Position numbers and translations under genes: made by a program. Shown in pieces: positions 1 through 42,453 of a DNA stretch of 64,000 bases; position 1 is the stretch's first letter; each line of letters begins with the position of its first letter. Below the pieces are notes generated by a model, which was not told where the DNA came from, did no database searches, and saw nothing but the letters and a program-made list of their open reading frames with translations. Where the stretch lies: assembly GCA_051362555.1 (NCBI GenBank), contig CM120642.1:13516001-13580000 (forward strand), in the 5' to 3' direction. The DNA comes from Lingula anatina (taxonomy: Eukaryota > Animalia > Brachiopoda).

Positions 1-3000
1 CCCTGCAAAAAAAATAAAATTTACTAACCTTAGCTTGGATCCAAGAGTGAAGTCCATGTCGGGGTGGGGTCGCTCCTCATCTTCATTGTCCTGTAAAAAG
101 ATATGAAAAACAAGATTAGATTTTTCAATTGAACCATCCCACCACCCGAAAGAAATAAAATTTACTAACCTTAGCTTGGATCCAAGAGTGAAGTCCATGT
201 CTGGGTGGGGTCGCTCCTCATCTTCATTGTCCTGTAAAAAGAAATGAAAAACAAGATTAGATTTATTCAATTGAACCATCCCTCCCCCGCAAAAGAAATA
301 AAATTTACTAACCTTAGCTTGGATCCAAGAGTGAAGTCCATGTCCGGGTGGGGTCGCTCGTCATCTTCATTGTCCTGTAAAAAGAAATGAAAAGCAAGAT
401 TAGATTTATTCAAATGAACCATCCCTCCCCCGCAAAAAAAAATAAAATTCACTAACCTTAGCTTGGATCCAAGAGTGAAGTCCATGTCCGGGTGGGGTCG
501 CTCGTCATCTTCATTGTCCTGTAAAAAGAAATGAAAAACAAGATTAGATTTATTCAATTTACCTATCCCACCACCCCAAAAAAATAAAATTTACTAACCT
601 TAGCTTGGATCCAAGAGTGAAGTCCATGTCCGGGTGGGGTCGCTCGTCATCTTCATTGTCCTGTAAAAAGAAATGAAAAACAAGATTAGATTTATTCAAT
701 TGAACCATCCATCCCCCGCAAAAAAAATAAAATTCACTAACCTTAGCTTGGATCCAAGAGTGAAGTCCATGTCCGGGTGGGGTCGCTCGTCATCTTCATT
801 GTCCTGTAAAAAGAAATGAAAAACAAGATTAGATTTATTCAATTGACCCATCCCACCACCCCCAAAAAATCAAATTTACTAACCTTATTTTGGATCCAAG
901 AGTGAAGTCCATGTCCGGGTGGGGTTGCTCGTCATCTTCTTTGTCCTGTAAAAAGAAATGAAAAACAAGATTAGATTTATTCAATTGAACCATCCCTCCC
1001 CCGCAAAAAAAAAAAATTTAATAACCTTAGCTTGGATCCAAGAGTGAAGTCCATGTCGGGGTGAGGTCGCTCCTCATCTTCATTGTCCTGTAAAAAGAAA
1101 TGAAAAACAAGATTAGATTTATTCAATTGAACCATCCCACCACCCCAAAGAAATAAAATTTACTAACCTTAGCTTGGATCCAAGAATGAAGTCCATGTCC
1201 GTTTGGGGTCACTCGTCATCTTCATTGTCCTGTAAAAAGAAATGAAAAACAAGATTAGATTTATTCAATTTACCTATCCCACCACCCTAAAAAAATAAAA
1301 TTTACTAACCTTAGCTTGGATCCAAGAGTGAAGTCCATGTCCGGATGGGGTCGCTCGTCATCTTCATTGTCCTAAAAAAGAAATGAAAAACAAGATTAGA
1401 TTTATTCAATTTACCCATCCCACCACCCCCAAAAAAATCAAATTCACTAACCTTATTTTGGATCCAAGAGTGAAGTCCATGTCCGGGTGGGGTCGCTCGT
1501 CATCTTCATTGTCCTGTAAAAAGAAATGAAAAACAAGATTAGATTTATTCAATTGAACCATCCCTCCCCCGCAAAAAAATAAAATTTACTAACCTTATTT
1601 TAGATCCAAGAGTGAAGTCCATGTCCGGGTGGGGTCGCTCATCATCTTCATTGTCCTGTAAAAAAAAAATGAAAAGCTAGATTAGATTTATTCAAATGAA
1701 CCATCCCTCCCCCGCAAAAAAAAAATAAAATTCACTAACCTTAGCTTGGATCCAAGAGTGAAGTCCATGTCCGGGTGGGGTCGCTCGTCATCTTCATTGT
1801 CCTGTAAAAAGAAATAAAAAACAAGATTAGATTTATTCAATTTACCTATCCCACCACCCCCAAAAAATAAAATTTACTAACCTTAGCTTGGATCCAAAAG
1901 TGAAGTCCATGTCCGGGTGGGGTCGCTCGTCATCTTCATTGTCCTGTAAAAAGATATGAAAAACAAGATTAGATTTATTCAATTGAACCATCCCGCCACC
2001 CCAAAGAAATAAAATTTACTAACCTTAGCTTGGATCCAAGAGTGAAGTCCATGTCCGGGTGGGGTCGCTCGTCATCTTCATTGTCCTGTAAAAAGAAATG
2101 AAAAACAAGATTAGATTTATTCAATTGAACCATCCCTCCCCCGCAAAAAAATAAAATTTACTAACCTTAGCTTGGATCCAAGAGTGAAGTCCATGTCCAG
2201 GTTGGGTCTCTCGTCATCTTCATTGTCCTGTAAAAAGAAATGAAAAACAAGATTAGATTTATTCAATTAACCCATCCCACCACCCCAAAAAAATCAAATT
2301 TACTAACCTTATTTTGGATCCAAGAGTGAAGTCCATGTCCGGGTGGGGTCGCTCATCATCTTCATTGTCCTGTAAAAAGAAATGAAAAGCTAGATTAGAT
2401 TTATTCAAATGAACCATCCCTCCCCCGCAAAAAAAAATAAAATTCACTAACTTTAGCTTGGATCCAAGAGTGAAGTCCATGTCCAGGTTGGGTCTCTCGT
2501 CATCTTCATTGTCCTGTAAAAAGAAATGAAAAACAAGATTAGATTTATTCAATTAACCCATCCCACCACCCCAAAAAAATCAAATTTACTAACCTTATTT
2601 TGGATCCAAGAGTGAAGTCCATGTCCGGGTGGGGTCGCTCGTCATCTTCATTGTCCTGTAAAAAGAAATGAAAAACAAGATTAGATTTATTCAATTGAAC
2701 CATCCCACCACCCCAAAGAAATAAAATTTACTAACCTTAGCTTGGATCCAAGAGTGAAGTCCATGTCCGGGTGGGGTCGCACGTCATCTTCTTTGTCCTG
2801 TAAAAAGAAATGAAAAACAAGATTAGATTTATTCAATTTACCCATCCCTCCCCTGCAAAAAAAAATAAAATTTACTAACCTTAGCTTGGATCCAAGAGTG
2901 AAGTCCATGTCCGGGTGGGGTCGCTCGTCATCTTCATTGTCCTGTAAAAAGAAATGAAAAACAAGATTAGATTTATTCAATTTACCTATCCCACCACCCA

Positions 3001-6000
3001 AAAAAAATAAAATTTACTAACCTTAGCTTGGATCCAAGAGTGAAGTCCATGTCCGGGTGGGGTCGCTCGTCATCTTCATTGTCCTGTAAAAAGAAATGAA
3101 AAACAAGATTAGATTTATTCAATTTACCTATCCCACCACCCTAAAAAATTAAAATTTACTAACCTTAGCTTGGATCCAAGAGTGAAGTCCATGTCCGGAT
3201 GGGGTCGCTCGTCATCTTCATTGTCCTTAAAAAGAAATGAAAAACAAGATTAGATTTATTCAATTTACCCATCCCACCACCCCCCAAAAAATCAAATTCA
3301 CTAACCTTATTTTGGATCCAAGAGTGAAGTCCATGTCCGGGTGGGGTCGCTCGTCATCTTCATTGTCCTGTAAAAAGAAATGAAAAACAAGATTAGATTT
3401 TTTTAATTGAACCATCCCTCCCCCGCAAAAAAATAAAATTTACTAACCTTAGCTTGGATCCAAGAGTGAAGTCCATGTCCAGGTTGGGTCTCACGTCATC
3501 TTCATTGTCCTGTAAAAAGAAATGAAAAACAAGATTAGATTTATTCAATGAACCCATCCCACCACCCCAAAAAAATCAAATTTACTAACCTTATTTTGGA
3601 TCCAAGAGTGAAGTCCATGTCCGGGTGGGGTCACTCATCATCTTCATTGTCCTGTAAAAAAAAATGAAAAGCTAGATTAGATTTATTCAAATGAACCATC
3701 CCTCCCCCGCAAAAAAAAATAAAATTCACTAACCTTAGCTTGGATCCAAGAGTGAAGTCCATGTCCGGGTGGGGTTGCTCGTCATCTTCATTGTCCTGTA
3801 AAAAGAAATAAAAAACAAGATTAGATTTATTCAATTTACCTATCCCACCACCCCCAAAAAATAAAATTTACTAACCTTAGCTTGGATCCAAGAGTGAAGT
3901 CCATGTCCGGGTGGGGTCGCTCGTCATCTTCATTGTCCTGTAAAAAGATATGAAAAACAAGATTAGATTTATTCAATTGAACCATCCCACCACCCCAAAG
4001 AAATAAAATTTACTAACCTTAGCTTGGATCCAAGAGTGAAGTCCATGTCCGGGTGGGGTCGCTCGTCATCTTCATTGTCCTGTAAAAAGAAATGAAAAAC
4101 AAGATTAGATTTATTCAATTGAACCATCCCTCCCCCGCAAAAAAATAAAATTTACTAACCTTAGCTTGGATCCAAGAGTGAAGTCCATGTCCAGGTTGGG
4201 TCTCTTGTCATCTTCATTGTCCTGTAAAAAGAAATGAAAAACAAGATTATATTTATTCAATTAACCCATCCCACCACCCCAAAAAAATCAAATTTACTAA
4301 CCTTATTTTGGATCCAAGAGTGAAGTCCATGTCCGGGTGGGGTCGCTCATCATCTTCATTGTCCTGTAAAAAAAAATGAAAAGCTAGATTAGATTTATTC
4401 AAATGAACCATCCCTCCCCCGCAAAAAAAAATAAAATTCACTAACCTTAGCTTGGATACAAGAGTGAAGTCCATGTCCGGGTGGGGTCGCTCGTCATCTT
4501 CATTGTCCTGTAAAAAGAAGTAAAAAACAAGATTAGATTTATTCAATTTACCTATCCCACCACCCCCAAAAAATAAAATTTACTAACCTTAGCTTGGATC
4601 CAAGAGTGAAGTCCATGTCCGGGTGGGGTCACTCGTCATCTTCATTGTCCTGTAAAAAGATATGAAAAACAAGATAAGATTTATTCAATTGAACCATCCC
4701 ACCACCCCAAAGAAATAAAATTTACTAACCTTAGCTTGGATCCAAGAGTGAAGTCCATGTCCGGGTGGGGTCGCTCGTCATCTTCATTGTCCTGTAAAAA
4801 GAAATGAAAAACAAGATTAGATTTATTCAATTGAACAATCCCACCACCCCAAAGAAATAAAATTTACTAACCTTAGCTTTGATCCAAGAATGAAGTCCAT
4901 GTCCGTTTGGGGTCACTCGTCATCTTCATTGTCCGGTAAAAAGAAATGAAAAACCAGATTAAATTTATTCAATTTACCTGTCCCACCACCCTAAAAAAAT
5001 AAAATTTACTAACCTTAGCTTGGATCCAAGAGTGAAGTCCATGTCCGGGTGGGGTCGCTCGTCATCTTCATTGTCCTTTTAAAAGAAATAAAAAACAAGA
5101 TTAGATTTATTCAATTGAACCATCCCACCACCCCAAAGAAATAAAATTTACTAACCTTAGCTTGGATCCAAGAGTGAAGTCCATGTCCGGGTGGGGTCGC
5201 ACGTCATCTTCTTTGTCCTGTAGAAAGAAATGAAAAACAAGATTACATTTATTCAATTGAACCATCCCTCCCCTGCAAAAAAAATAAAATTTACTAACCT
5301 TAGCTTGGATCCAAGAGTGAAGTCCATGTCGGGGTGGGGTCGCTCCTCATCTTCATTGTCCTGTAAAAAGATATGAAAAACAAGATTAGATTTTTCAATT
5401 GAACCATCCCACCACCCGAAAGAAATAAAATTTACTAACCTTAGCTTGAATCCAAGAGTGAAGTCCATGTCTGGGTGGGGTCGCTCCTCATCTTCATTGT
5501 CCTGTAAAAAGATATGAAAAACAAGATTAGATTTTTCAATTGAACCATCCCACCACCCGAAAGAAATAAAATTTACTAACCTTAGCTTGAATCCAAGAGT
5601 GAAGTCCATGTCTGGGTGGGGTCGCTCCTCATCTTCATTGTCCTGTAAAAAGAAATGAAAAACAAGATTAGATTTATTCAATTGAACCATCCCTCCCCCG
5701 CAAAAGAAATAAAATTTACTAACCTTAGCTTGGATCCAAGAGTGAAGTCCATGTCCGGGTGGGGTCGCTCGTCATCTTCATTGTCCTGTAAAAAGAAATG
5801 AAAAACAAGATTAGATTTATTCAATTTACCTATCCCACCACCCAAAAAAAATAAAATTTACTAACCTTAGCTTGGATCCAAGAGTGAAGCCCATGTCCGG
5901 GTGGGGTCGCTCGTCATCTTCATTGTCCTGTAAAAAGAAATGAAAAACAAGATTAGATTTATTCAATTGAACCGTCCCTCCCCCGCAAAAAAAATAAAAT

Positions 6001-12000: not shown

Positions 12001-15000
12001 AGAGTGAAGTCCATGTCCGGGTGGGGTCACTCGTCATCTTCATTGTCCTGTAAAAAGAAATGAAAAACAAGATTAGATTTATTCAATTGACCCATCCCAC
12101 CACCCCCAAAAAATCAAATTTACTAACCTTATTTTGGATCCAAGAGTGAAGTCCATGTCCGGGTGGGGTCGCTCGTCATTTTCTTTGTCCTGTAAAAAGA
12201 AATGAAAAACAAGATTAGATTTATTCAATTGAACCATCCCTCCCCCGCAAAAAAAAAAAAAAAAATTTAATAACCTTAGCTTGGATCCAAGAGTGAAGTC
12301 CATGTCGGGGTGGGGTCGCTCCTCATCTTCATTGTCCTGTAAAAAGAAATGAAAATAAGATTAGATTTATTCAATTGAACCATCCCACCACCCCAAAGAA
12401 ATAAAATTTACTAACCTTAGCTTGGATCCAAGAATGAAGTCCATGTCCGTTTGGGGTCACTCGTCATCTTCATTGTCCTGTAAAAAGAAATGAAAAACAA
12501 GATTAGATTTATTCAATTTACCTATCCCACCACCCTAAAAAAATAAAATTTACTAACCTTAGCTTGGATCCAAGAGTGAAGTCCATGTCCGGATGGGGTC
12601 GCTCGTCATCTTCATTGTCCTAAAAAAGAAATGAAAAACAAGATTAGATTTATTCAATTTACCCATCCCACCACCCCCCAAAAAATCAAATTCACTAACC
12701 TTATTTTGGATCCAAGAGTGAAGTCCATGTCCGGGTGGGGTCGCTCGTCATCTTCATTGTCCTGTAAAAAGAAATGAAAAACAAGATTAGATTTATTCAA
12801 TTGAACCATCCCTCCCCCGCAAAAAAATAAAATTTACTAACCTTAACTTGGATCCAAGAGTGAAGTCCATGTCCAGGTTGGGTCTCTCGTCATCTTCATT
12901 GTCCTGTAAAAAGAAATGAAAAACAAGATTAGATTTATTCAATTAACCCATCCCACCACCCCAAAAAAATCAAATTTACTAACCTTATTTTGGATCCAAG
13001 AGTGAAGTCCATGTCCGGGTGGGGTCGCTCATCATCTTCATTGTCCTGTAAAAAGAAATGAAAAGCTAGATTAGATTTATTCAAATGAACCATCCCTCCC
13101 CCGCAAAAAAAAATAAAATTCACTAACCTTAGCTTGGATCCAAGAGTGAAGTCCATGTCCGGGTGGGGTCGTTCGTCATCTTCATTGTCCTGTAAAAAGA
13201 AAAAAAAACAAGATTAGATTTATTCAATTTACCTATCCCACAACCCCCAAAAAATAAAATTTACTAACCTTAGCTTGGATCCAAGAGTGAAGTCCATGTC
13301 CGGGTGGGGTCGCTCGTCATCTTCTTTGTCCTGTAAAAAGAAATGAAAAACAAGATTAGATTTATTCAATTGAACCATCCCTCCCCCGCAAAAAAAATAA
13401 AATTTACTAACCTTAGCTTGGATCAAAGAGTGAAGTCCATGTCGGGGTGGGGTCGCTCCTCATCTTCATTGTCCCGTAAAAAGATATGAAAAACAAGATT
13501 AGATTTTTCAATTGAACCATCCCACCACCCCAAAGAAATAAAATTTACTAACCTTAGATTGGATCCAAGAGTGAAGTCCATGTCCGGGTGGGGTCGCTCG
13601 TCATCTTCATTGTCCTGTAAAAAGAAATGAAAAGCAAGATTATATTGATTCAAATGAACCATCCCTCCCCCGCAAAAAAAAAAAAAAATTTACTAACCTT
13701 AGCTTGGATCCAAGAGTGAAGTCCATGTCCGGGTGGGGTCGCTCGTCATCTTCATTGTCCGGTAAAAAGAAATGAAAAACAAGATTAGATTTATTCAATT
13801 TACCTATCCCACCACCCCAAAAAAATAAAATTTACTAACCTTAGCTTGGATCCAAGAGTGAAGTCCATGTCCGGGTGGGGTCGCTCGTCATCTTCATTGT
13901 CCTGTAAAAAGAAATGAAAAAGAAGATTAGATTTATTCAATTGAACCATCCCTCCCCCGCAAAAAAAAAAAAATTCACTAACCTTAGCTTGGATCCAAGA
14001 GTGAAGTCCATGTCCGGGTGGGGTCGCACGTCATCTTCATTGTCCTGTAAAAAGAAATGAAAAACAAGATTAGATTTATTCAATTAACCCATCCCACCAC
14101 CCCAAAAAAATCAAATTTACTAACCTTATTTTGGATCCAAGAGTGAAGTCCATGTCCGGGTGGGGTCGCTCATCATCTTCATTGTCCTGTAAAAAGAAAT
14201 GAAAAGCTAGATTAGATTTATTCAAATGAACCATCCCTCCCCCGCAAAAAAAAATAAAATTCACTAACCTTAGCTTGGATCCAAGAGTGAAGTCCATGTC
14301 CGGGTGGGGTCGCTCGTCATCTTCATTGTCCTGTAAAAAGAAAAAAAAACAAGATTAGATTTATTCAATTTACCTATCCCACAACCCCCAAAAAATAAAA
14401 TTTACTAACCTTAGCTTGGATCCAAGAGTGAAGTCCATGTCCGGGTGGGGTCGCTCGTCATCTTCTTTGTCCTGTAAAAAGAAATGAAAAACAAGATTAG
14501 ATTTATTCAATTGAACCATCCCTCCCCCGCAAAAAAAATAAAATTTACTAACCTTAGCTTGGATCAAAGAGTGAAGTCCATGTCGGGGTGGGGTCGCTCC
14601 TCATCTTCATTGTCCCGTAAAAAGATATGAAAAACAAGATTAGATTTTTCAATTGAACCATCCCACCACCCCAAAGAAATAAAATTTACTAACCTTAGAT
14701 TGGATCCAAGAGTGAAGTCCATGTCCGGGTGGGGTCGCTCGTCATCTTCATTGTCCTGTAAAAAGAAATGAAAAGCAAGATTATATTGATTCAAATGAAC
14801 CATCCCTCCCCCGCAAAAAAAAAATAAAATTTACTAACCTTAGCTTGGATCCAAGAGTGAAGTCCATGTCCGGGTGGGGTCGCTCGTCATCTTCATTGTC
14901 CTGTAAAAAGAAATGAAAAACAAGATTAGATTTATTCAATTTACCTATCCCACCACCCCAAAAAAATAAAATTTACTAACCTTAGCTTGGATCCAAGAGT

Positions 15001-18000
15001 AAAGTCCATGTCCGGGTGGGGTTGCTCGTCATCTTCATTGTCCTGTAAAAAGAAATGAAAAACAAGATTAGATTTATTCAATTGAACCATCCCTCCCCCG
15101 CAAAAAAAAATAAAATTCACTAACCTTAGCTTGGATCCAAGAGTGAAGTCCATGTCCGGGTGGGGTCGCACGTCATCTTCATTGTCCTGTAAAAAGAAAT
15201 GAAAAACAAGATTAGATTTATTCAATTGAACCATCCCTCCCCCGCAAAAAAAATAAAATTCACTAACCTTAGCTTGGATCCAAGAGTGAAGTCCATGTCC
15301 GGGTGGGGTCGCTCGTCATCTTCATTGTCCTGTAAAAAGAAATGAAAAACAAGATTAGATTTATTCAACTGAACCATCCCACCACCCCAAAGAAATAAAA
15401 TTTACTAACCTTAGCTTGGATCCAAGAGTGAAGGCCATGTCTGGGTGGGGTCGATCGTCATCTTCTTTGTCCTGTAAAAAGAAATGAAAAACAAGATTAG
15501 ATTTATTCAATTGAACCATCCCTCCCCCGCAAAAAAAATAAAATTTACTAACCTTAACTTGGATCCAAGAGTGAAGTCCATGTCGGGGTGGGGTCGCTCC
15601 TCATCTTCATTGTCCTGTAAAAAGAAATGAAAAACAAGATTAGATTTATTCAATTGAACCATCCCACCACCCCAAAGAAATAAAATTTACTAACCTTAGC
15701 TTGGATCCAAGAATGAAGTCCATGTCCGTTTGGGGTCACTCGTCATCTTCATTGTCCTGTAAAAAGAAATGAAAAACAAGATTAGATTTATTCAATTTAC
15801 CTATCCCACCACCCTAAAAAAATAAAATTTACTAACCTTAGCTTGGATCCAAGAGTGAAGTCCATGTCCAGATGGGGTCGCTCGTCATCTTCATTGTCCT
15901 AAAAAAGAAATGAAAAACAAGATTAGATTTATTCAATTTACCCATCCCACCACCCCCAAAAAAATCAAATTCACTAACCTTATTTTGGATCCAAGAGTGA
16001 AGTCCATGTCCGGGTGGGGTCGCTCGTCATCTTCATTGTCCTGTAAAAAGAAATGAAAAACAAGATTAGATTTATTCAATTGAACCATCCCTCCCCCGCA
16101 AAAAAATAAAATTTACTAACCTTAGCTTGGATCCAAGAGTGAAGTCCATGTCCAGGTTGGGTCTCTCGTCATCTTCATTGTCCTGTAAAAAGAAATGAAA
16201 AACAAGATTAGATTTATTCAATTAACCCATCCCACCACCCCAAAAAAATCAAATTTACTAACCTTATTTTGGATCCAAGAGTGAAGTCCATGTCCGGGTG
16301 GGGTCGCTCATCATCTTCATTGTCCTGTAAGAAGAAATGAAAAGCTAGATTAGATTTATTCAAATGAACAATCCCTCCCCCGCAAAAAAAAAAAATAAAA
16401 TTCACTAACCTTAGCTTGGATCCAAGAGTGAAGTCCATGTCCGGGTGGGGTCGCTCGTCATCTTCATTGTCCTGTAAAAAGAAATAAAAAACAAGATTAG
16501 ATTTATTCAATTTACCTATCCCACCACCCCAAAAAAATAAAATTTACTAACCTTAGCTTGGATCCAAGAGTGAAGTCCATGTCCAGGTGGGGTCGCTCGT
16601 CATCTTCATTGTCCTGTAAAAAGAAATGAAAAACAAGATTAGATTTATTCAACTGAACCATCCCACCACCCCAAAAAAGATAAAATTTACTAACCTTAGC
16701 TTATATCCAAGAGTGAAGTCCATGTCCGGGTGGGGTCGCTCGTCATCTTCATTGTCCTTTTAAAAGAAATAAAAAACAAGATTAGATTTTTCAATTCACC
16801 CATCCCACCACCGACAAAAAATCAAATTTACTAACCTTATTTTGGATCCAAGAGTGAAGTCCATGTCCGGGTGGGGTCGCTCGTCATCTTCATTGTCCTG
16901 TAAAAAGATATGAAATACAAGATTAGATTTATTCTACTGAACCATCCCACCACCCCAAAGAAATAAAATTCACTAACCTAAGCTTGGATCCAAGAGTGAA
17001 GTCCATGTCCGGGTGGGGACGCTCGTCATCTTCATTGTCCTGTAAAAAGAAATGAAAAACAAGATTAGATTTATTCAATTGAACCATCCCTCCCCCGCAA
17101 AAAAAATTAAATTCACTAACCTCAGCTTGGATCAAAGAGTGAAGTCCATGTCCCGGTGGGGTCGCTCGTCATCTTCATTGTCCTGTAAAAAGAAATGAAA
17201 AACAAGATTAGATTTATTCAATTGAACCATCCCACCACCCCAAAGAAATAAAATTTACTAACCTTAGCTTGGATCCAAGAGTGAAGACCATGTCTGGGTG
17301 GGGTCGATCGTCATCTTCTTTGTCCTATAAAAAGAAATGAAAAACAAGATTAGATTTTTTCAATTTACCCATCCCACCACCCCAAAAAAGATAAAATTTA
17401 CTAACCTTAGCTTGGACCCAAGAGTGAAGTCCATGTCCGGGTGGGGTCGCACGTCATCTTCTTTGTCCTGTAAAAAGAAATGAAAAACAAGATTAGATTT
17501 ATTCAATTTACCTATCCCACCACCCCCAAAAAATAAAATTTACTAACCTTAGCTTGGATCCAAGAGTGAAGTCCATGTCCGGGTGGGGTCACTCGTCATC
17601 TTCATTGTCCTGTAAAAAGAAATGAAAAACAAGTTTAGATTTATTCAATTGACCCATCCCACCACCCCCAAAAAATCAAATTTACTAACCTTATTTTGGA
17701 TCGAAGAGTGAAGTCCATGTCCGGGTGGGGTCGCTCGTCATCTTCATTGTCCTGTAAAAAGAAATGAAAAGCAAGATTAGATTTATTCAAATGAACCATC
17801 CCTCCCCCGCAAAAAAAAATAAAATTCACTAACCTTAGCTTGGATCCAAGAGTGAAGTCCATGTCCGGGTGGGGTTGCTTGTCATCTTCATTGTCCTGTA
17901 AAAAGATATGAAAAACAAGATTAGATTATTCAATTGAACCATCCCACCACCCCAAAGAAATAAAATTTACTAACCTTAGCTTGGATCCAAGAGTGAAGTC

Positions 18001-21000
18001 CATGTCCGGGTGGGGTCGCACGTCATCTTCTTTGTCCTGTAAAAAGAAATGAAAAACAAGATTAGATTTATTCAATTGAACCATCCCTCCCCCGCAAAAA
18101 AAATAAAATTTACTAACCTTAGCTTGGATCCAAGAGTGAAGTCCATGTCCGGGTGGGGTCGCTCGTCATCTTCATTGTCCTGTAAAAAGATATGAAAAAC
18201 AAGATTAGATTCATTCAACTGAACCATCCCACCACCCCAAAGAAATAAAATTTACTAACCTTAGCTTGGATCCAAGAGTGAAGTCCATGTCTGGGTGGGG
18301 TCGCACGTCATCTTCTTTGTCCTGTAAAAAGAAATGAAAAACAAGATTAGATTTATTCAATTGAACCATCCCTCCCCCGCAAAAAAAATAAAATTCACTA
18401 ACCTTAGCTTGGATCCAAGAGTGAAGTCCATGTCCGGGTGGGGTCGCTCGTCATCTTCATTGTCCTGTAAAAAGAAATGAAAAGCAAGATTAGATTTATT
18501 CAAATGAACCATCCCTCCCCCGCAAAAAAAAATAAAATTCACTAACCTTAGCTTGGATCTAAGAGTGAAGTCCATGTCCGGGTGGGGTCGCTCGTCATCT
18601 TCATTGTCCTGTAAAAAGATATGAAAAACAAGATTAGATTTATTCAAATGAACCATCCCTCCCCCGCAAAAAAAAATAAAATTCACTAACCTTAGCTTGG
18701 ATCCAAGAGTGAAGTCCATGTCTGGGTGGGGTCGCTCGTCATCTTCATTGTCCTGTAAAAAGATATGAAAAACAAGATTAGATTTATTCAATTGAACCAT
18801 CCCACCACCCCAAAGAAATAAAATTTACTAACCTTAGCTTGGATCCAAGAGTGAAGACCATGTCTGGGTGGTGTCGATCGTCATCTTCTTTGTCCTGTAA
18901 AAATAAATGAAAAACAAGATTAGATTTATTCAATTTACCCATCCCACCACCCCAAAAAAGATAAAATTTACTAACCTTAGCTTGGATCCAAGAGTGAAGT
19001 CCATGTCCGGGTGGGGTCGCTCGTCATCTTCATTGTCCTGTAAAAAGAAATAAAAAACAAGATTAGATTTATTCAATTCACCTATCCCACCACCCCCAAA
19101 AAATAAAATTTACTAACCTTAGCTTGGATCCAAGAGTGAAGTCCATGTCCGGGTGGGGTCACTCGTCATCTTCATTGTCCTGTAAAAAGAAATGAAAAAC
19201 AAGATTAGATTTATTCAATTGACCCATCCCACCACCCCCAAAAAATCAAATTTACTAACCTCATTTTGGATCCAAGAGTGAAGTCCATGTCCGGGTGGGG
19301 TCGCTCGTCATCTTCATTGTCCTGTAAAAAGATATGAAAAACAAGATTAGATTTATTCTACTGAACCATCCCACCACCCCAAAGAAATAAAATTTACTAA
19401 CCTAAGCTTGGATCCAAAAGTGAAGTCCATGTCTGGGTGGGGTCGCTCCTCATCTTCATTGTCCTGTAAAAAGGAATCAAAAACAAGATTAGCTTTATTC
19501 AATTTACCCATCCCAACACCTCAAAAAAATAAAATTTACTAACCTTAGCTTGGACCCAAGAGTGAAGTCCATGTCCGGGTGGGGTCGCACGTCATCTTCT
19601 TTGTCCTGTAAAAAGAAATGAAAAACAAGATTAGATTTATTCAATTGAACCATCCCTCCCCCGCAAAAAAAATAAAATTCACTAACCTAAGCTTGGATCC
19701 AAGAGTGAAGTCCATGTCCGGGTGGGGTCGCTCGTCATCTTCATTGTCCTGTAAAAAGAAATGAAAAACAAGATTAGATTTTTTCAATTGAACCATCCCT
19801 CCCCCGCAAAAAAAATTAAATTCACTAACCTTAGCTTGGATCAAAGAGTGAAGTCCATGTCCCGGTGGGGTCGCTCGTCATCTTCATTGTCCTGTAAAAA
19901 GATATGAAAAACAAGATTAGATTTATTCAATTGACCCATCCCACCACCCCCAAAAAATCAAATTTACTAACCTTAGATTGGATCCAAGAGTGAAGTCCAT
20001 GTCCGGGTGGGGTCGCTCGTCATCTTCATTGTCCTGTAAAAAGAAATGAAAAGCAAGATTATATTGATTCAAATGAACCATCCCTCCCCCGCAAAAAAAA
20101 AATAAAATTTACTAACCTTAGCTTGGATCCAAGAGTGAAGTCCATGTCCGGGTGGGGTCGCTCGTCATCTTCATTGTCCTGTAAAAAGAAATGAAAAACA
20201 AGATTAGATTTATTCAATTTACCTATCCCACCACCCCAAAAAAATAAAATTTACTAACCTTAGCTTGGATCCAAGAGTAAAGTCCATGTCCGGGTGGGGT
20301 TGCTCGTCATCTTCATTGTCTTGTAAAAAGAAATGAAAAACAAGATTAGATTTATTCAATTGAACCATCCCTCCCCCGCAAAAAAAAATAAAATTCACTA
20401 ACCTTAGCTTGGATCCAAGAGTGAAGTCCATGTCCGGGTGGGGTCGCACGTCATCTTCATTGTCCTGTAAAAAGAAATGAAAAACAAGATTAGATTTATT
20501 CAATTGAACCATCCCTCCCCCGCAAAAAAAATAAAATTCACTAACCTTAGCTTGGATCCAAGAGTGAAGTCCATGTCCGGGTGGGGTCGCTCGTCATCTT
20601 CATTGTCCTGTAAAAAGAAATAAAAAACAAGATTAGATTTATTCAACTGAACCATCCCACCACCCCAAAGAAATAAAATTTACTAACCTTAGCTTGGATC
20701 CAAGAGTGAAGGCCATGTCTGGGTGGGGTCGATCGTCATCTTCTTTGTCCTGTAAAAAGAAATGAAAAACAAGATTAGATTTATTCAATTGAACCATCCC
20801 TCCCCCGCAAAAAAAATAAAATTTACTAACCTTAACTTGGATCCAAGAGTGAAGTCCATGTCGGGGTGGGGTCGCTCCTCATCTTCATTGTCCTGTAAAA
20901 AGAAATGAAAAACAAGATTAGATTTATTCAATTGAACCATCCCACCACCCCAAAGAAATAAAATTTACTAACCTTAGCTTGGATCCAAGAATGAAGTCCA

Positions 21001-24000
21001 TGTCCGTTTGGGGTCACTCGTCATCTTCATTGTCCTGTAAAAAGAAATGAAAAACAAGATTAGATTTATTCAATTTACCTATCCCACCACCCTAAAAAAA
21101 TAAAATTTACTAACCTTAGCTTGGATCCAAGAGTGAAGTCCATGTCCAGATGGGGTCGCTCGTCATCTTCATTGTCCTAAAAAAGAAATGAAAAACAAGA
21201 TTAGATTTATTCAATTTACCCATCCCACCACCCCCAAAAAAATCAAATTCACTAACCTTATTTTGGATCCAAGAGTGAAGTCCATGTCCGGGTGGGGTCG
21301 CTCGTCATCTTCATTGTCCTGTAAAAAGAAATGAAAAACAAGATTAGATTTATTCAATTGAACCATCCCTCCCCCGCAAAAAAATAAAATTTACTAACCT
21401 TAGCTTGGATCCAAGAGTGAAGTCCATGTCCAGGTTGGGTCTCTCGTCATCTTCATTGTCCTGTAAAAAGAAATGAAAAACAAGATTAGATTTATTCAAT
21501 TAACCCATCCCACCACCCCAAAAAAATCAAATTTACTAACCTTATTTTGGATCCAAGAGTGAAGTCCATGTCCGGGTGGGGTCGCTCATCATCTTCATTG
21601 TCCTGTAAGAAGAAATGAAAAGCTAGATTAGATTTATTCAAATGAACAATCCCTCCCCCGCAAAAAAAAAAAATAAAATTCACTAACCTTAGCTTGGATC
21701 CAAGAGTGAAGTCCATGTCCGGGTGGGGTCGCTCGTCATCTTCATTGTCCTGTAAAAAGAAATAAAAAACAAGATTAGATTTATTCAATTTACCTATCCC
21801 ACCACCCCAAAAAAATAAAATTTACTAACCTTAGCTTGGATCCAAGAGTGAAGTCCATGTCCAGGTGGGGTCGCTCGTCATCTTCATTGTCCTGTAAAAA
21901 GAAATGAAAAACAAGATTAGATTTATTCAACTGAACCATCCCACCACCCCAAAAAAGATAAAATTTACTAACCTTAGCTTATATCCAAGAGTGAAGTCCA
22001 TGTCCGGGTGGGGTCGCTCGTCATCTTCATTGTCCTTTTAAAAGAAATAAAAAACAAGATTAGATTTTTCAATTCACCCATCCCACCACCGACAAAAAAT
22101 CAAATTTACTAACCTTATTTTGGATCCAAGAGTGAAGTCCATGTCCGGGTGGGGTCGCTCGTCATCTTCATTGTCCTGTAAAAAGATATGAAATACAAGA
22201 TTAGATTTATTCTACTGAACCATCCCACCACCCCAAAGAAATAAAATTCACTAACCTAAGCTTGGATCCAAGAGTGAAGTCCATGTCCGGGTGGGGACGC
22301 TCGTCATCTTCATTGTCCTGTAAAAAGAAATGAAAAACAAGATTAGATTTATTCAATTGAACCATCCCTCCCCCGCAAAAAAAATTAAATTCACTAACCT
22401 CAGCTTGGATCAAAGAGTGAAGTCCATGTCCCGGTGGGGTCGCTCGTCATCTTCATTGTCCTGTAAAAAGAAATGAAAAACAAGATTAGATTTATTCAAT
22501 TGAACCATCCCACCACCCCAAAGAAATAAAATTTACTAACCTTAGCTTGGATCCAAGAGTGAAGACCATGTCTGGGTGGGGTCGATCGTCATCTTCTTTG
22601 TCCTATAAAAAGAAATGAAAAACAAGATTAGATTTTTTCAATTTACCCATCCCACCACCCCAAAAAAGATAAAATTTACTAACCTTAGCTTGGACCCAAG
22701 AGTGAAGTCCATGTCCGGGTGGGGTCGCACGTCATCTTCTTTGTCCTGTAAAAAGAAATGAAAAACAAGATTAGATTTATTCAATTTACCTATCCCACCA
22801 CCCTCAAAAAATAAAATTTACTAACCTTAGCTTGGATCCAAGAGTGAAGTCCATGTCCGGGTGGGGTCACTCGTCATCTTCATTGTCCTGTAAAAAGAAA
22901 TGAAAAACAAGTTTAGATTTATTCAATTGACCCATCCCACCACCCCCAAAAAATCAAATTTACTAACCTTATTTTGGATCGAAGAGTGAAGTCCATGTCC
23001 GGGTGGGGTCGCTCGTCATCTTCATTGTCCTGTAAAAAGAAATGAAAAGCAAGATTAGATTTATTCAAATGAACCATCCCTCCCCCGCAAAAAAAAATAA
23101 AATTCACTAACCTTAGCTTGGATCCAAGAGTGAAGTCCATGTCCGGGTGGGGTTGCTTGTCATCTTCATTGTCCTGTAAAAAGATATGAAAAACAAGATT
23201 AGATTATTCAATTGAACCATCCCACCACCCCAAAGAAATAAAATTTACTAACCTTAGCTTGGATCCAAGAGTGAAGTCCATGTCCGGGTGGGGTCGCACG
23301 TCATCTTCTTTGTCCTGTAAAAAGAAATGAAAAACAAGATTAGATTTATTCAATTGAACCATCCCTCCCCCGCAAAAAAAATAAAATTTACTAACCTTAG
23401 CTTGGATCCAAGAGTGAAGTCCATGTCCGGGTGGGGTCGCTCGTCATCTTCATTGTCCTGTAAAAAGATATGAAAAACAAGATTAGATTTATTCAACTGA
23501 ACCATCCCACCACCCCAAAGAAATAAAATTTACTAACCTTAGCTTGGATCCAAGAGTGAAGTCCATGTCTGGGTGGGGTCGCACGTCATCTTCTTTGTCC
23601 TGTAAAAAGAAATGAAAAACAAGATTAGATTTATTCAATTGAACCATCCCTCCCCCGCAAAAAAAATAAAATTCACTAACCTTAGCTTGGATCCAAGAGT
23701 GAAGTCCATGTCCGGGTGGGGTCGCTCGTCATCTTCATTGTCCTGTAAAAAGAAATGAAAAGCAAGATTAGATTTATTCAAATGAACCATCCCTCCCCCG
23801 CAAAAAAAAATAAAATTCACTAACCTTAGCTTGGATCTAAGAGTGAAGTCCATGTCCGGGTGGGGTCGCTCGTCATCTTCATTGTCCTGTAAAAAGATAT
23901 GAAAAACAAGATTAGATTTATTCAAATGAACCATCCCTCCCCCGCAAAAAAAAATAAAATTCACTAACCTTAGCTTGGATCCAAGAGTGAAGTCCATGTC

Positions 24001-27000
24001 TGGGTGGGGTCGCTCGTCATCTTCATTGTCCTGTAAAAAGATATGAAAAACAAGATTAGATTTATTCAATTGAACCATCCCACCACCCCAAAGAAATAAA
24101 ATTTACTAACCTTAGCTTGGATCCAAGAGTGAAGACCATGTCTGGGTGGTGTCGATCGTCATCTTCTTTGTCCTGTAAAAATAAATGAAAAACAAGATTA
24201 GATTTATTCAATTTACCCATCCCACCACCCCAAAAAAGATAAAATTTACTAACCTTAGCTTGGATCCAAGAGTGAAGTCCATGTCCGGGTGGGGTCGCTC
24301 GTCATCTTCATTGTCCTGTAAAAAGAAATAAAAAACAAGATTAGATTTATTCAATTCACCTATCCCACCACCCCCAAAAAATAAAATTTACTAACCTTAG
24401 CTTGGATCCAAGAGTGAAGTCCATGTCCGGGTGGGGTCACTCGTCATCTTCATTGTCCTGTAAAAAGAAATGAAAAACAAGATTAGATTTATTCAATTGA
24501 CCCATCCCACCACCCCCAAAAAATCAAATTTACTAACCTCATTTTGGATCCAAGAGTGAAGTCCATGTCCGGGTGGGGTCGCTCGTCATCTTCATTGTCC
24601 TGTAAAAAGATATGAAAAACAAGATTAGATTTATTCTACTGAACCATCCCACCACCCCAAAGAAATAAAATTTACTAACCTAAGCTTGGATCCAAAAGTG
24701 AAGTCCATGTCTGGGTGGGGTCGCTCCTCATCTTCATTGTCCTGTAAAAAGGAATCAAAAACAAGATTAGCTTTATTCAATTTACCCATCCCAACACCTC
24801 AAAAAAATAAAATTTACTAACCTTAGCTTGGACCCAAGAGTGAAGTCCATGTCCGGGTGGGGTCGCACGTCATCTTCTTTGTCCTGTAAAAAGAAATGAA
24901 AAACAAGATTCGATTTATTCAATTGAACCATCCCTCCCCCGCAAAAAAAATAAAATTCACTAACCTAAGCTTGGATCCAAGAGTGAAGTCCATGTCCGGG
25001 TGGGGTCGCTCGTCATCTTCATTGTCCTGTAAAAAGAAATGAAAAACAAGATTAGATTTTTTCAATTGAACCATCCCTCCCCCGCAAAAAAAATTAAATT
25101 CACTAACCTTAGCTTGGATCAAAGAGTGAAGTCCATGTCCCGGTGGGGTCGCTCGTCATCTTCATTGTCCTGTAAAAAGATATGAAAAACAAGATTAGAT
25201 TTATTCAATTGACCCATCCCACCACCCCCAAAAAATCAAATTTACTAACCTTATTTTGGATCCAAGAGTGAAGTCCATGTCCGGGTGGGGTCGCTCGTCA
25301 TCTTCATTGTCCTGTAAAAAGATATGAAAAACAAGATTAGATTTATTCTACTGAACCATCCCACCACCCCAAAGAAATAAAATTTACTAACCTTAGCTTG
25401 GATCCAAAAGTGAAGTCCATGTCTGGGTGGGGTCGCTCCTCATCTTCATTGTCCTGTAAAAAGAAAGGAAAAACAAGATTAGCTTTATTCAATTTACCCA
25501 TCCCACCACCCCAAAAAAATAAAATTTACTAACCTTAGCTTGGACCCAAGAGTGAAGTCCATGTCCGGGTGGGGTCGCACGTCATCTTCTTTGTCCTGTA
25601 AAAAGAAATGAAAAACAAGATTAGATTTATTCAATTGAACCATCCCTCCCCCGCAAAAAAAATAAAATTCACTAACCTTAGCTTGGATCCAAGAGTGAAG
25701 TCCATGTCCGGGTGGGGTCGCTCGTCATCTTCATTGTCCTGTAAAAAGAAATGAAAAACAAGATTAGATTTATTCAATTGAACCATCCCTCCCCCGCAAA
25801 AAAATTAAATTCACTAACCTTAGCTTGGATCAAAGAGTGAAGTCCATGTCCGGGTGGGGTCGCTCGTCATCTTCATTGTCCTGTAAAAAGATATGAAAAA
25901 CAAGATTAGATTTATTCAATTGAACCATCCCACCACCCCAAAGAAATAAAATTTACTAACCTTAGCTTGGATCCAAGAGTGAAGTCCATGTCTGGGTGGG
26001 GTCGCTCCTCATCTTCATTGTCCTGTAAAAAGAAATGAAAAGCAAGATTAGATTTATTCAAATGAACGATCCCTCCCCCGCAAAAAAAATAAAATTCACT
26101 AACCTTAGCTTGGATCCAAGAGTGAAGTCCATGTCCGGGTGGGGTCGCTTGTCATCTTCATTGTCCTGTAAAAAGATATGAAAAACAAGATTAGATTTAT
26201 TCAATTGAACCATCCCACCACCCCAAAGAAATAAAATTTACTAACCTTAGCTTGGATCCAAGAGTGAAGTCCATGTCCGGGTGGGGTCGCACGTCATCTT
26301 CTTTGTCCTGTAAAAAGAAATGAAAAACAAGATTAGATTTATTCAATTGAACCATCCCTCCCCCGCAAAAAAAATAAAATTTACTAACCTTAGCTTGGAT
26401 CCAAGAGTGAAGTCCATGTCCGGGTGGGGTCGCTTGTCATCTTCATTGTCCTGTAAAAAGATATGAAAAACAAGATTAGATTTATTCAACTGAACCATCC
26501 CACCACCCTAAAGAAATAAAATTTACTAACCTTAGCTTGGATCCAAGAGTGAAGTCCATGTCTGGGTGGGGTCGCACGTCATCTTCTTTGTCCTGTAAAA
26601 AGAAATGAAAAACAAGATTAGATTTATTCAATTGAACCATCCCTCCCCCACAAAAAAAATAAAATTCACTAACCTTAGCTTGGATCCAAGAGTGAAGTCC
26701 ATGTCCGGGTGGGGTCGCACGTCATCTTCTTTGTCCTGTAAAAAGAAATGAAAAACAAGATTAGATTTATTCAATTGAACCATCCCTCCCCCGCAAAAAA
26801 ATAAAATTCACTAACCTTAACTTGGATCAAAGAGTGAAGTCCATGTCCGGGTGGGGTCGCTCGTCATCTTCATTGTCCTGTAAAAATAAATGAAAAACAA
26901 GATTAGATTTATTCAATTGACCCATCCCACCACCCCCAAAAAATCAAATTTACTAACCTTATTTTGGATCCAAGAGTGAAGTCCATGTCCGGGTGGGGTC

Positions 27001-39000: not shown

Positions 39001-42000
39001 CTTCATTGTCCTGTAAAAAGAAATGAAAAGCAAGATTAGATTTATTCAAATGAACCATCCCTCCCCCGCAAAAAAAAATAAAATTCACTAACCTTAGCTT
39101 GGATCCAAGAGTGAAGTCCATGTCCGGGTGGGGTCGCTCGTCATCTTCATTGTCCTGTAAAAAGATATGAAAAACAAGATTAGATTTATTCAATTGAACC
39201 ATCCCACCACCCCAAAGAAATAAAATTTACTAACCTTAGCTTGGATCCAAGAGTGAAGACCATGTCTGGGTGGTGTCGATCGTCATCTTTTTTGTCCTGT
39301 AAAAATAAATGAAAAACAAGATTAGATTTATTCAATTTACCCATCCCACCACCCCAAAAAAGATAAAATTTACTAACCTTAGCTTGGATCCAAGAGTGAA
39401 GTCCATGTCCGGGTGGGGTCGCTCGTCATCTTCATTGTCCTGTAAAAAGAAATAAAAAACAAGATTAGATTTATTCAATTCACCTATCCCACCACCCCCA
39501 AAAAATAAAATTTACTAACCTTAGCTTGGATCCAAGAGTGAAGTCCATGTCCGGGTGGGGTCAGTCGTCATCTTCATTGTCCTGTAAAAAGAAATGAAAA
39601 ACAAGATTAGATTTATTCAATTGACCCATCCCACCACCCCCAAAAAATCAAATTTACTAACCTTATTTTGGATCCAAGAGTGAAGTCCATGTCCGGGTGG
39701 GGTCGCTCGTCATCTTCATTGTCCTGTAAAAAGATATGAAAAACAAGATTAGATTTATTCTACTGAACCATCCCACCACCCCGAAGAAATAAAATTTACT
39801 AACCTAAGCTTGGATCCAAGAGTGAAGTCCATGTCTGGGTGGGGTCGCTCCTCATCTTCATTGTCCTGTAAAAAGAAATGAAAAGCAAGATTAGATTTAT
39901 TCAAATGAACCATCCCTCCCCCGCAAAAAAAATAAAATTCACTAACCTTAGCTTGGATCCAAGAGTGAAGTCCATGTCCGGGTGGGGTCGCTTGTCATCT
40001 TCATTGTCCTGTAAAAAGATATGAAAAACAAGATTAGATTTATTCAATTGAACCATCCCACCACCCCAAAGAAATAAAATTTACTAACCTTAGCTTGGAT
40101 CCAAGAGTGAAGTCCATGTCCGGGTGGGGTCGCACGTCATCTTCTTTGTCCTGTAAAAAGAAATGAAAAACAAGATTAGATTTATTCAATTGAACCATCC
40201 CTCCCCCGCAAAAAAAATAAAATTTACTAACCTTAGCTTGGATCCAAGAGTGAAGTCCATGTCCGGGTGGGGTCGCTTGTCATCTTCATTGTCCTGTAAA
40301 AAGATATGAAAAACAAGATTAGATTTATTCAACTGAACCATCCCACCACCCCAAAGAAATAAAATTTACTAACCTTAGCTTAGATTCAAGAGTGAAGTCC
40401 ATGTCTGGGTGGGGTCGCTCCTCATCTTCATTGTCCTGTAAAAAGAAATGAAAAACAAGATTAGATTTATTCAATTTACCCATCCCACCACCCCAAAAAA
40501 ATAAAATTTACTAACCTTAGCTTGGACCCAAGAGTGAAGTCCATGTCCGGGTGGGGTCGCACGTCATCTTCTTTGTCCTGTAAAAAGAAATGAAAAACAA
40601 GATTAGATTTATTCAATTGAACCATCCCTCCCCCGCAAAAAAAATAAAATTCACTAACCTTAGCTTGGATCCAAGAGTGAAGTCCATGTCCGGGTGGGGT
40701 CGCTCGTCATCTTCATTGTCCTGTAAAAAGAAATGAAAAACAAGATTAGATTTATTCAATTGAACCATCCCTCCCCCGCAAAAAAAATAAAATTCACTAA
40801 CCTTAGCTTGGATCAAAGAGTGAAGTCCATGTCCGGGTGGGGTCGCTCGTCATCTTCATTGTCCTGTAAAAAGAAATAAAAAACAAGATTAGATTTATTC
40901 AATTTACCTATCCCACCACCCCCAAAAAATAAAATTAACTAACCTTAGCTTGGATCCAAGAGTGAAGTCCATGTCCGGGTGGGGTCACTCGTCATCTTCA
41001 TTGTCCTGTAAAAAGAAATGAAAAACAAGATTAGATTTATTCAATTGACCCATCCCACCACCCCCAAAAAATCAAATTTACTAACCTTATTTTGGATCCA
41101 AGAGTGAAGTCCATGTCCGGGTGGGGTCGCACGTCATCTTCTTTGTCCTGTAAAAAGAAATGAAAAACAAGATTAGATTTATTCAATTGAACCATCCCTC
41201 CCCCGCAAAAAAAATAAAATTTACTAACCTTAGCTTGGATCCAAGAGTGAAGTCCATGTCTGGGTGGGGTCGCTCGTCATCTTCATTGTCCTGTAAAAAG
41301 AAATGAAAAGCAAGATTAGATTTATTCAAATGAACCATCTCTCCCCCGCAAAAAAAAATAAAATTCACTAACCTTAGCTTGGATCCAAGAGTGAAGTCCA
41401 TGTCCAGGTGGGGTCGCTCATCATCTTCATTGTCCTGTAAAAAGATATGAAAAACAAGATTAGATTTATTCAATTGAACCATCCCACCACCCCAAAGAAA
41501 TAAAATTTACTAACCTTAGCTTGGATCCAAGAGTGAAGTCCATGTCCGGGTGGGGTCGCACGTCATCTTCTTTGTCCTGTAAAAAGAAATGAAAAACAAG
41601 ATTAGATTTATTCAATTGAACCATCCCTCCCCCGCAAAAAAAATAAAATTTACTAACCTTAGCTTGGATCCAAGAGTGAAGTCCATGTCCGGGTGGGGTC
41701 GCTCGTCATCTTCATTGTCCTGTAAAAAGATATGAAAAACAAGATTAGATTTATTCAACTGAACCATCCCACCACCCCAAAGAAATAAAATTTACTAACC
41801 TTAGCTTGGATCCAAGAGTGAAGTCCATGTCCGGGTGGGGTCGCTCCTCATCTTCATTGTCCTGTAAAAAGAAATGAAAAACAAGATTAGATTTATTCAA
41901 TTAAATCATCCCACCCCTGCAAAAAAAGAAAAAAAAAATTCTAACTTTAGCTTGGATCCCAGAGTGAAGTCCATGTCCGTTTGGGGTCGCTCGTCATCTT

Positions 42001-42453
42001 CATTGTCCTGTAAAAAGAAATGAAAAACAAGATTAGTTTTTTTCAATTTACCCATCCCACCACCCCAAAGAAATAAAATTTACTAACCTTAGCTTGGATC
42101 CAAGAGTGAAGTCCATGTCCGGGTGGGGTCGCTCGTCATCTTCATTGTCCTGTAAAAAGAAATGAAAAACAAGATTAGATTTATTCAATTTACCCATCCC
42201 ACCACCCCCAAAAAATAAAATTTACTAACCTTAGCTTGGATCAAAGAGTGAAGTCCATGTCCGGGTGGGGTCGCACGTCATCTTCTTTGTCCTGTAAAAA
42301 GAAATGAAAAACAAGATTAGATATTTTCAATTTACCTATACCATCACCCCAAAAAGATAAATCTTACTAACCTTAGCTTGGATCCAAGAGTGAAGTCCAT
42401 GTCTTGTTGGGATCGCTAGTCATCTTCTTTGTCCTGTAAAAAGAAATAAAAAA
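1..42453 (-). repeat. Tandem array (satellite) of ~298 x 142-143 bp units; each unit is a 62-nt exon-like segment plus an ~80-nt GT-AG intron-like segment on the minus strand; truncated by the left window edge
   Basis: Minus-strand consensus: ...ctaatcttgtttttcatttctttttacag|GACAATGAAGATGACGAGCGACCCCACCCGGACATGGACTTCACTCTTGGATCCAAGCTAAG|gttagt(a/g)aattttatt... First exon-like copy in the window is 29-90 and the last is 42372-42433. Copy number is estimated as (42372-29)/~142.6+1. Most units carry a BamHI site. Confidence 0.98.
42372..42433 (-). other. Terminal (5'-most on minus strand) exon-like copy of the array unit
   Basis: 62 nt between ttttttatttctttttacag (AG at 42435-42434) and gttagt (GT at 42371-42370). 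The next intron, 42371-42292, is 80 nt. Repeat similarity stops ~20 nt upstream of this acceptor. This copy is more divergent than typical internal copies. Confidence 0.6.

What the first reader, a model, noticed from the sequence alone, without database searches (positions are those of the whole stretch)
1..42453. A >42-kb satellite whose monomer is a complete exon plus intron: ~298 tandem splice-competent cassettes
Seen: on the minus strand each 142-143 bp unit has, in the correct order and spacing, a donor (AAG|GTTAGT, GTGAGT in the copy at ~38219), a G-run segment, a CTAAT branch point ~25-30 nt before the acceptor, a pyrimidine tract and CAG. These define a 62-nt exon and an ~80-nt intron. 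Several acceptor variants keep the AG (ttttttag, tttttaag, ttttatag); a few lose it (e.g. ~4935, ~9060, ~13475). Established: these are canonical U2 spliceosomal signals. Inference: this is a massively amplified exon inside a transcription unit rather than an ordinary satellite. It could be a giant multi-exon repeat lncRNA (~18 kb of 62-mers if all are spliced), a Dscam-like pool of alternative cassettes, or a recursive-splicing or delay structure. Caveat: the whole unit is well conserved, so signal retention alone does not prove selection.
Basis: partly seen in the sequence, partly recalled or inferred. Interest (0 to 1): 0.88.

Follow-up and report, generated by a model that had tools for sequence, protein, structure and literature searches.

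The report
Satellite built from a spliced exon
In a brachiopod genome one 62-base exon with its 80-base intron is repeated at least 298 times in a row; RNA reads show closely related copies being spliced exon to exon at exactly these signals, so it is likely a runaway expansion inside a weakly expressed non-coding RNA gene, although whether these particular 298 copies are transcribed is untested.

Summary
Observation confirmed: 298 tandem units (window 1-42453, minus strand), each a 62-nt exon plus a 79-95-nt intron; GT in 298 of 298, AG in 291 of 298. The flanking helicase matches Lingula anatina at 98%. RNA reads laid on one unit show the predicted splice: 6 of 91 reads join donor to acceptor of another copy ('goes back 62'), all minus-strand; 13 more leave the donor into another exon start; about half of sense reads still hold the intron. 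But the reads come from relatives, not from these copies: two letters seen in 75 of 75 and 68 of 80 reads occur together in 0 of 298 window exons. Read depth suggests about ten repeat exons per transcript, not 300. No reading frame survives splicing, no intronic small-RNA cargo was found, and GT/AG are not significantly more conserved than other sites. Best reading: recent unequal-crossover expansion of one exon-intron unit of a lowly expressed repeat-exon non-coding gene. Dscam-like and recursive-splicing readings are not supported. 272 of 297 introns carry AATAAA, which may cut transcripts short.

The parts
1..42453 (-). Tandem array, at least 298 units of 62-nt exon + about 80-nt intron; runs off the window's left edge
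42372..42433 (-). First (5'-most) exon copy, the most diverged of the first twelve (6 differences from the commonest letters); its acceptor lacks the CTAAT and abuts a dispersed repeat
42088..42149 (-). Representative exon (third copy); RNA joints fall on its two ends
   Evidence: joint 42148 to 42087, goes back 62, 6 reads
42008..42087 (-). Representative 80-nt intron: GTTAGT donor, T-run, G-rich segment, CTAAT branch point, pyrimidine tract, CAG
   Evidence: no stable fold of a like intron, z 0.43
42180..42185 (-). Example of the intronic AATAAA present in 272 of 297 introns, 35-37 nt before the acceptor and 44-49 nt after the donor
   Evidence: use as a polyadenylation signal is untested
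14755..25169 (-). Recent block duplication inside the array: 36 units repeated 37 units further on, 31 of 36 identical
   Evidence: real duplication or assembly artefact not distinguished
42459..43430 (.). Truncated high-copy dispersed repeat with 151-168-bp internal cores, directly upstream of the first exon; other copies continue with different sequence beyond 42459
   Evidence: (depth up to 1420, loose ends, back-joints of 139-167)
43686..44127 (-). Candidate start and first exon of the host transcript: CpG-rich, low minus-strand RNA depth, ends at a weak GTTAGT donor (inferred; junction to the array not seen)
   Evidence: X1 depth 2.82 and 0.65 in bins 43720-44127, 0 in 44128-44535; CpG o/e 1.08 and 0.86 in 43601-44400
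47201..58309 (+). Neighbouring SKI2W/SKIV2L helicase gene (context; strand control for the RNA runs)
59540..61004 (-). Neighbouring prefoldin subunit gene (context)
   Evidence: Prefoldin_2; 'subunit 6' is my recall

Best explanation
The array is a satellite-like expansion of one genuine exon-intron unit whose splice sites are used in related copies, and it likely lies inside a weakly expressed, minus-strand, multi-exon non-coding RNA gene that in other animals likely carries only about ten, more diverged, repeat exons. Shown: unit anatomy; exon-to-exon splicing of the repeat family at the predicted donor and acceptor; no open frame after splicing; block duplications and CpG decay. Inferred: transcription starts in the CpG-rich stretch near 44.1 kb and runs into the array; unequal crossing-over amplified one unit about 30-fold in this haplotype; the extra copies are tolerated rather than selected; transcripts entering them are partly spliced and probably end early at the AATAAA present in most introns, or are degraded because they carry stops ahead of many junctions.
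For:: 6 of 91 laid reads show the 62-nt back-joint (X1 1, X2 2, X3 3, X5 0), all with the first mate on + (minus-strand RNA by the SKIV2L control in X1); 13 further reads (X1 7, X3 6) leave the donor into the start of another exon copy; 4 reads enter the acceptor from a diverged exon end, 4 from an unrelated sequence, 4 leave into a diverged exon. Sense depth falls at the donor (25 to 12, 15 to 11, 20 to 10) while opposite-strand depth stays flat (8, 8, 2); depth in 43720-43923 follows exon-1 reads across the four runs (X1 2.82 and 22 reads; X7 0.61 and 3-4; X4 0 and 0; X9 0 and 0). Summed exon depth 25-30 in X1 is about ten times that unique-region depth; longest stop-free run in the spliced chain is 61 codons; CpG transitions 20 copies per site against a median of 1 elsewhere; blocks of 36, 20 and 17 near-identical units. 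GT+AG no more conserved than base-matched sites (P 0.29-0.51).
Against: No read can be assigned to the window's copies: exon position 6 is A in 75 of 75 reads and position 15 is T in 68 of 80, a pair found in 0 of 298 window exons; ten read alleles are absent from all 298. The unrelated upstream exon seen in 4 X3 reads is not in the window (20 letters, up to 3 mismatches), so the expressed copies may belong to another locus or lie beyond the left edge. No junction from 43686 to the array was among the 15 joints displayed (156 not shown). Whether 43686-44127 is single-copy is unknown. The joined form could not be checked against DNA runs (table 5b not given). Depth ratios are rough: 6 in 100 of each P1 run was read, polyA libraries are 3'-biased, and both mates are counted.
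Confidence: 0.55

Rival explanations
1. Silent offshoot: the window's array is an untranscribed satellite seeded by one exon-intron unit of a repeat-exon gene that is expressed from another locus.
For: Reads match none of the window's copies; an upstream exon seen in reads is absent from the window; the array starts abruptly at a truncated dispersed repeat; no selection on splice sites.
Against: Minus-strand RNA just upstream (43720-44127) in the same runs that hold array reads; CpG-rich island there; the animals sequenced are not the one assembled, so allele differences are expected.
Confidence: 0.22
2. Functional giant repeat RNA: most of the 298 or more exons are transcribed and spliced, giving an RNA of 18 kb or more, or a nascent transcript that gathers spliceosomes or one RNA-binding protein at its locus, as proposed for chicken LL2R and FIRRE.
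For: 280 of 297 introns keep all three signals; exon length invariant in 297 of 297; donor+branch+AG carry fewer variant copies than random sites in 1 of 9 tests (P 0.028); intron middle is the most variable non-CpG part (22.6 variant copies per site against 1.0 at the donor).
Against: 8 of 9 tests not significant; indels in the intron sit mostly in a T-run; about 30 reads per 12 million records; depth ratio about ten; no fold (z -0.02 to 1.18); AATAAA in 272 of 297 introns while at least 17 of 19 sense reads over that place lack it.
Confidence: 0.13
3. Coding use: a Dscam-like pool of alternative phase 0-to-2 cassettes, or a chain of tiny ORFs (each exon holds an ATG at 11-13 and a stop at 59-61).
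For: One frame is open in 251 of 298 exons, with a slight synonymous excess (14 of 32 against 30 of 130, P 0.026); the ATG is present in 298 of 298 and the stop in 288 of 298.
Against: 62 is not a multiple of 3; repeat exons are joined to each other; 47 of 298 have stops in that frame; the synonymous excess is not significant once transitions and transversions are separated (P 0.25, 0.47) and three frames were tested; small-ORF frame pN/pS 0.92; no protein hit among 64 candidates (weak); the exons are near-identical, so a pool would give little diversity.
Confidence: 0.05
4. Host gene for an intronic small RNA (snoRNA, mirtron), like SNHG14, Bsr or C19MC-HG.
For: Same architecture of repeated non-coding exons.
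Against: No Rfam match at E up to 1 in 40000-64000, which holds 17 units; the intron tested folds no better than shuffles (z 0.43); 80 nt leave little room; no C/D boxes in the intron by inspection.
Confidence: 0.04
5. Recursive-splicing or delay device inside a long intron.
For: Closely spaced donors and acceptors over more than 42 kb.
Against: The acceptor is followed by GA, not GT, so removal of the intron regenerates no donor; the exons are kept in polyA RNA; no upstream coding exon on the minus strand between the array and SKIV2L was found.
Confidence: 0.01

Closest known systems
C19MC-HG (PMC2691840; passages seen)
   Same: Non-coding Pol II transcript made of repeated spliced exons (123 nt, 37 similar segments), ladder of exon-sized steps, no ORF, exons hard to place because of sequence differences.
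   Different: Its 400-700-nt units carry a pre-miRNA in the intron; here the unit is 142 bp, no cargo was found, and there are at least 298 copies.
SNORD115/116 host RNA and rat Bsr/RBII-36 (PMC3413130; passages seen)
   Same: Tandem units of repeated exon plus repeated intron in a long non-coding RNA.
   Different: Each intron there encodes a C/D snoRNA; not detected here. Imprinting not testable.
SmPoMuc genes of Schistosoma mansoni (PMC2576457; passages seen)
   Same: Invertebrate tandem genomic repeat = one short exon plus intron, homogenised by concerted evolution, number varying between genes.
   Different: 27-nt in-frame coding exon, about 1-kb unit, at most about 20 copies; here non-coding, 142 bp, at least 298.
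FIRRE RRD (PMC4820808; passages seen)
   Same: lncRNA whose exons are copies of one local repeat (7 of 13 human, 11 of 23 mouse exons).
   Different: Copies are discontinuous, not a head-to-tail satellite; RRD has a shown nuclear-retention role, untested here.
Human F7 intron 7 VNTR (PMC1557585; abstract seen)
   Same: Tandem repeat that multiplies a splice site.
   Different: Only the donor is repeated and the extra sites stay silent; here a whole exon with both sites is repeated and related copies are spliced to each other.
Chicken LL2R array (bioRxiv 10.64898/2026.03.19.712899; passages seen)
   Same: About 360-copy transcribed tandem array rich in splice signals.
   Different: Excess of donors, proposed to be unspliced and poor in polyA signals; here donors and acceptors are 1:1, splicing is seen, and AATAAA is in most units.

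Membership tests
U2-type exon-intron unit | GT donor, branch point, pyrimidine tract, AG in order and spacing | tested here: met
   280 of 297 introns
U2-type exon-intron unit | Junction used in RNA on the right strand | tested here: met
   6 joints plus 13 loose ends of 91 reads, for related copies
U2-type exon-intron unit | The window's own copies are transcribed and spliced | tested here: inconclusive
   reads carry letters absent from the window's copies; no RNA of this haplotype identified
Satellite DNA under concerted evolution | Long head-to-tail array of similar monomers with block duplications | tested here: met
   169 distinct of 297 units, mean 11.2 differing columns per pair
Repeat-exon non-coding RNA gene | Spliced product without a long ORF | tested here: met
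   longest stop-free run 61 codons; no protein hit (weak)
Repeat-exon non-coding RNA gene | Promoter and first exon linked to the repeats at this locus | tested here: inconclusive
   minus-strand depth and CpG island at 43.7-44.1 kb, junction not seen
Small-RNA host gene (C19MC-HG, SNHG14, Bsr) | snoRNA or pre-miRNA in each intron | tested here: not met
   no Rfam hit, no hairpin; small-RNA data not available
Dscam-like cassette cluster | Mutually exclusive inclusion of diverse in-frame exons | tested here: not met
   repeat exons joined to each other; 47 of 298 with stops
Recursive splicing | Acceptor directly followed by a regenerated donor (AG|GT) | tested here: not met
   acceptor is followed by GA
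Architectural repeat RNA (LL2R, FIRRE) | Nuclear retention or locus-bound RNP focus | not testable with these tools
   needs RNA FISH or fractionation

The most novel reading that the evidence does not exclude
A non-coding gene whose exon number varies between animals from about ten to 300 or more, the long allele being transcribed through hundreds of minimal introns, each with a U1 site 44-49 nt ahead of an AATAAA: a natural array for testing exon definition, U1 protection against premature polyadenylation and spliceosome sequestration, possibly acting as an architectural RNA.
Probability: 0.15. Interest if true: 0.8.

Novelty: new variant of a known kind. Interest (0 to 1): 0.5.

Why it matters
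Repeat-exon non-coding genes are known from mammals, where the introns carry small RNAs, and exon-plus-intron repeats are known from coding genes with about 20 copies. Here the unit is minimal (142 bp), shows no cargo, and has reached satellite scale, while the family is demonstrably spliced. It shows that a satellite can arise from a whole working exon, and that repeat-masked DNA can hide spliced transcripts. If the long allele is transcribed it offers about 300 near-identical splice units with natural variants (7 lost acceptors, 25 introns without AATAAA) for a single long-read experiment. If it is not, it is a large but functionless curiosity.

Tried and rejected
No whole genome is held, so paralogues and the left end of the array could not be examined. 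No RNA holder was listed by the run index; nine raw-read runs came by species label, of which seven were laid (X1, X4, X7, X9; X1, X2, X3, X5). One search was swamped by dispersed repeats: 15 joints shown, 156 not. The 3 loose-end reads of X2 at the donor gave a mixed consensus (agreement 0.74) and were left out of the 13. Read likeness classes were not used against the window's copies, because window units themselves spread over the same classes in an ungapped comparison. Exact scan of metagenome contigs for the exon core: 0 matches. Rfam: 0. Folding of unit, exon, intron: no signal. Protein search with an array ORF: 0 of 64 candidates. Unit against the 21.5-kb flank: only the first acceptor is significant; two 10-mers at 43696-43722 have E 2.2 each. 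A 66-nt exon through the weaker GTAAAT donor was considered and dropped, since the joints are 62 nt. A single-exon circle was considered for the back-joint and judged unlikely (62 nt; loose ends show different neighbouring copies). The bacterial promoter scan does not apply to an animal and was ignored. Literature searches returned nothing; a paper on Bsr asked for by a recalled id is not held.

Full report
Observation. The array is as described. Tandem Repeats Finder gives one array at 8-42453, period 142, 297.7 copies. On the minus strand 298 exon copies were located; donors are GT in 298 of 298 (AAG|GTTAGT in 276), acceptors AG in 291 of 298. Introns are 79-85 nt (one 95), 286 of 297 have CTAAT with the branch A 25-27 nt before the end, and 280 of 297 keep donor, branch motif and acceptor together. 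The exon is 62 nt with no gap in 297 of 297 aligned units. The array runs off the left edge.

Setting. The flank holds a Ski2-type helicase gene on the plus strand (47201-58309) and a prefoldin gene on the minus strand. One helicase exon matches Lingula anatina SKI2W at 98% and the next best protein at 49%, so the animal is that brachiopod or a very close relative. Between helicase and array lie several dispersed repeats; one with 151-168-bp internal cores is truncated at 42459, right against the first acceptor. No genome is held.

Is the unit spliced? The run search listed no indexed RNA holder but offered nine raw-read RNA runs by species label. In one search, run X1 proved stranded (both helicase exon bins had first mates on minus only) and put 22 reads on exon 1, all in the orientation of minus-strand RNA. 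In one search one unit (42053-42194) took 91 reads from four runs (32, 24, 33, 2). Six show a joint that goes back 62 letters from the donor to the acceptor (3 letters of ambiguity), all minus-strand RNA. Thirteen more (X1 7, X3 6) leave the donor into the first 27-30 letters of another exon copy; four enter the acceptor from a diverged exon end, four leave into a diverged exon start, four enter from an unrelated sequence. These sets may overlap. Sense depth falls at the donor (25 to 12 in X1, 15 to 11 in X2, 20 to 10 in X3), opposite-strand depth is flat (8, 8, 2), an internal control for unspliced material. Strandedness of X2 and X3 is assumed from the shared study. The joined form could not be checked in DNA runs.

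Which copies are expressed? Not demonstrably these. Exon position 6 is A in 75 of 75 reads (57 of 298 in the window) and position 15 is T in 68 of 80 (14 of 298); both together occur in 0 of 298. Ten read alleles are absent from all window exons, and the unrelated upstream exon is not in the window. The reads come from a more diverged set of copies: other animals' alleles of this locus, the part beyond the left edge (favoured by polyA selection), or a paralogue. For this locus speaks a CpG-rich stretch at 43.6-44.4 kb with minus-strand depth 2.82 in X1, whose depth follows the exon-1 reads over four runs (2.82/22, 0.61/3-4, 0/0, 0/0). Summed exon depth in X1 is about ten times that value, which suggests about ten repeat exons per transcript in those animals (inference, rough). 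Overall level is low: 32 reads in 12.4 million records.

Coding or cargo? Splicing all 298 exons leaves at most 61 stop-free codons; the one open frame has stops in 47 of 298 copies. Its synonymous excess (P 0.026 pooled) fades when transitions and transversions are separated (P 0.25, 0.47); it may be a relic of a coding origin but is weak. Each exon holds a small ATG-to-stop frame without constraint (pN/pS 0.92). No protein hit (0 of 64 candidates), no Rfam family, no fold better than shuffles.

Selection on splice sites? Not shown. GT is invariant, but so are 44 of 143 columns; AG has four alleles. Eight of nine base-matched permutation tests are not significant, one gives P 0.028. The array behaves like a satellite: blocks of 36, 20 and 17 near-identical units at lags 37, 53 and 42, and CpG transitions at 20 copies per site against a median of 1, which suggests germline methylation (inference).

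An added feature. 272 of 297 introns carry AATAAA 35-37 nt before the acceptor, followed by a U-rich tract and preceded by the donor 44-49 nt upstream. At least 17 of 19 sense reads over that place lack it. One hexamer in an AT-rich 80-mer can be chance, and the read difference may be just allelic, but it predicts that transcripts of the long allele end early unless U1 binding protects them (known mechanism, recalled; untested here).

Mechanism. Most likely a lowly expressed multi-exon non-coding gene with an old set of repeated short exons, one unit of which was amplified by unequal crossing-over to satellite scale in this haplotype and is tolerated (0.55). Rivals: silent offshoot of a gene elsewhere (0.22), functional giant or architectural RNA (0.13), coding cassettes or small ORFs (0.05), small-RNA host (0.04), recursive splicing (0.01).

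Known systems. It is built like C19MC-HG (PMC2691840, passages) and the SNORD115/116 and Bsr hosts (PMC3413130, passages), but fails their defining feature, an intronic small RNA. SmPoMuc (PMC2576457, passages) has exon-plus-intron repeats under concerted evolution but is coding with about 20 copies. FIRRE (PMC4820808, passages), the F7 VNTR (PMC1557585, abstract) and LL2R (10.64898/2026.03.19.712899, passages) each share one aspect. Searches (listings) found no report of this array or of a satellite with a whole spliced non-coding exon as monomer; the main text of a L. anatina genome paper has no mention of satellite, tandem repeat or lncRNA (PMC13121700, term search; supplements not read and may bear on this); PMC9940879 (passages) was not relevant. 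The library lacks most subscription papers. Three earlier scan notes describe splice-site minisatellites in other invertebrates without use of the extra sites (unchecked).

Verdict. Real feature, splicing of the family shown, expression and function of this 42-kb allele open. New variant of a known kind; interest 0.5.

Noticed in passing
window 43794-43871: Three copies of a 26-bp CpG-rich repeat inside the candidate first exon.
   Followed up: no
window 43680-43722 (minus): Two 10-mers of the array unit and a GTTAGT donor cluster within 43 nt; each match alone has E 2.2. Possibly a scrambled old copy of the unit.
   Followed up: partly
window 42459-43430: Abundantly transcribed dispersed repeat with 151-168-bp internal tandem cores (depth up to 1420, mostly one strand in X1); resembles the Helitron-type elements with internal satellites known from molluscs (recalled, not tested).
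   Followed up: partly
window 47201-61004: SKIV2L and a prefoldin subunit (likely PFDN6) are neighbours, tail to tail; both lie in the human MHC region (recalled), so this may be an old linkage.
   Followed up: no
window 47549-47715 and 48008-48177: Two inverted copies of a high-copy short element in the first SKIV2L intron, giving opposite-strand joints in RNA reads.
   Followed up: no
window 1-42453: Two intron types (GGTGG-containing in 177 of 297) are interspersed without a fixed higher-order period.
   Followed up: partly
window 62812-62943: Two copies of a 65-bp unit, 97% alike.
   Followed up: no
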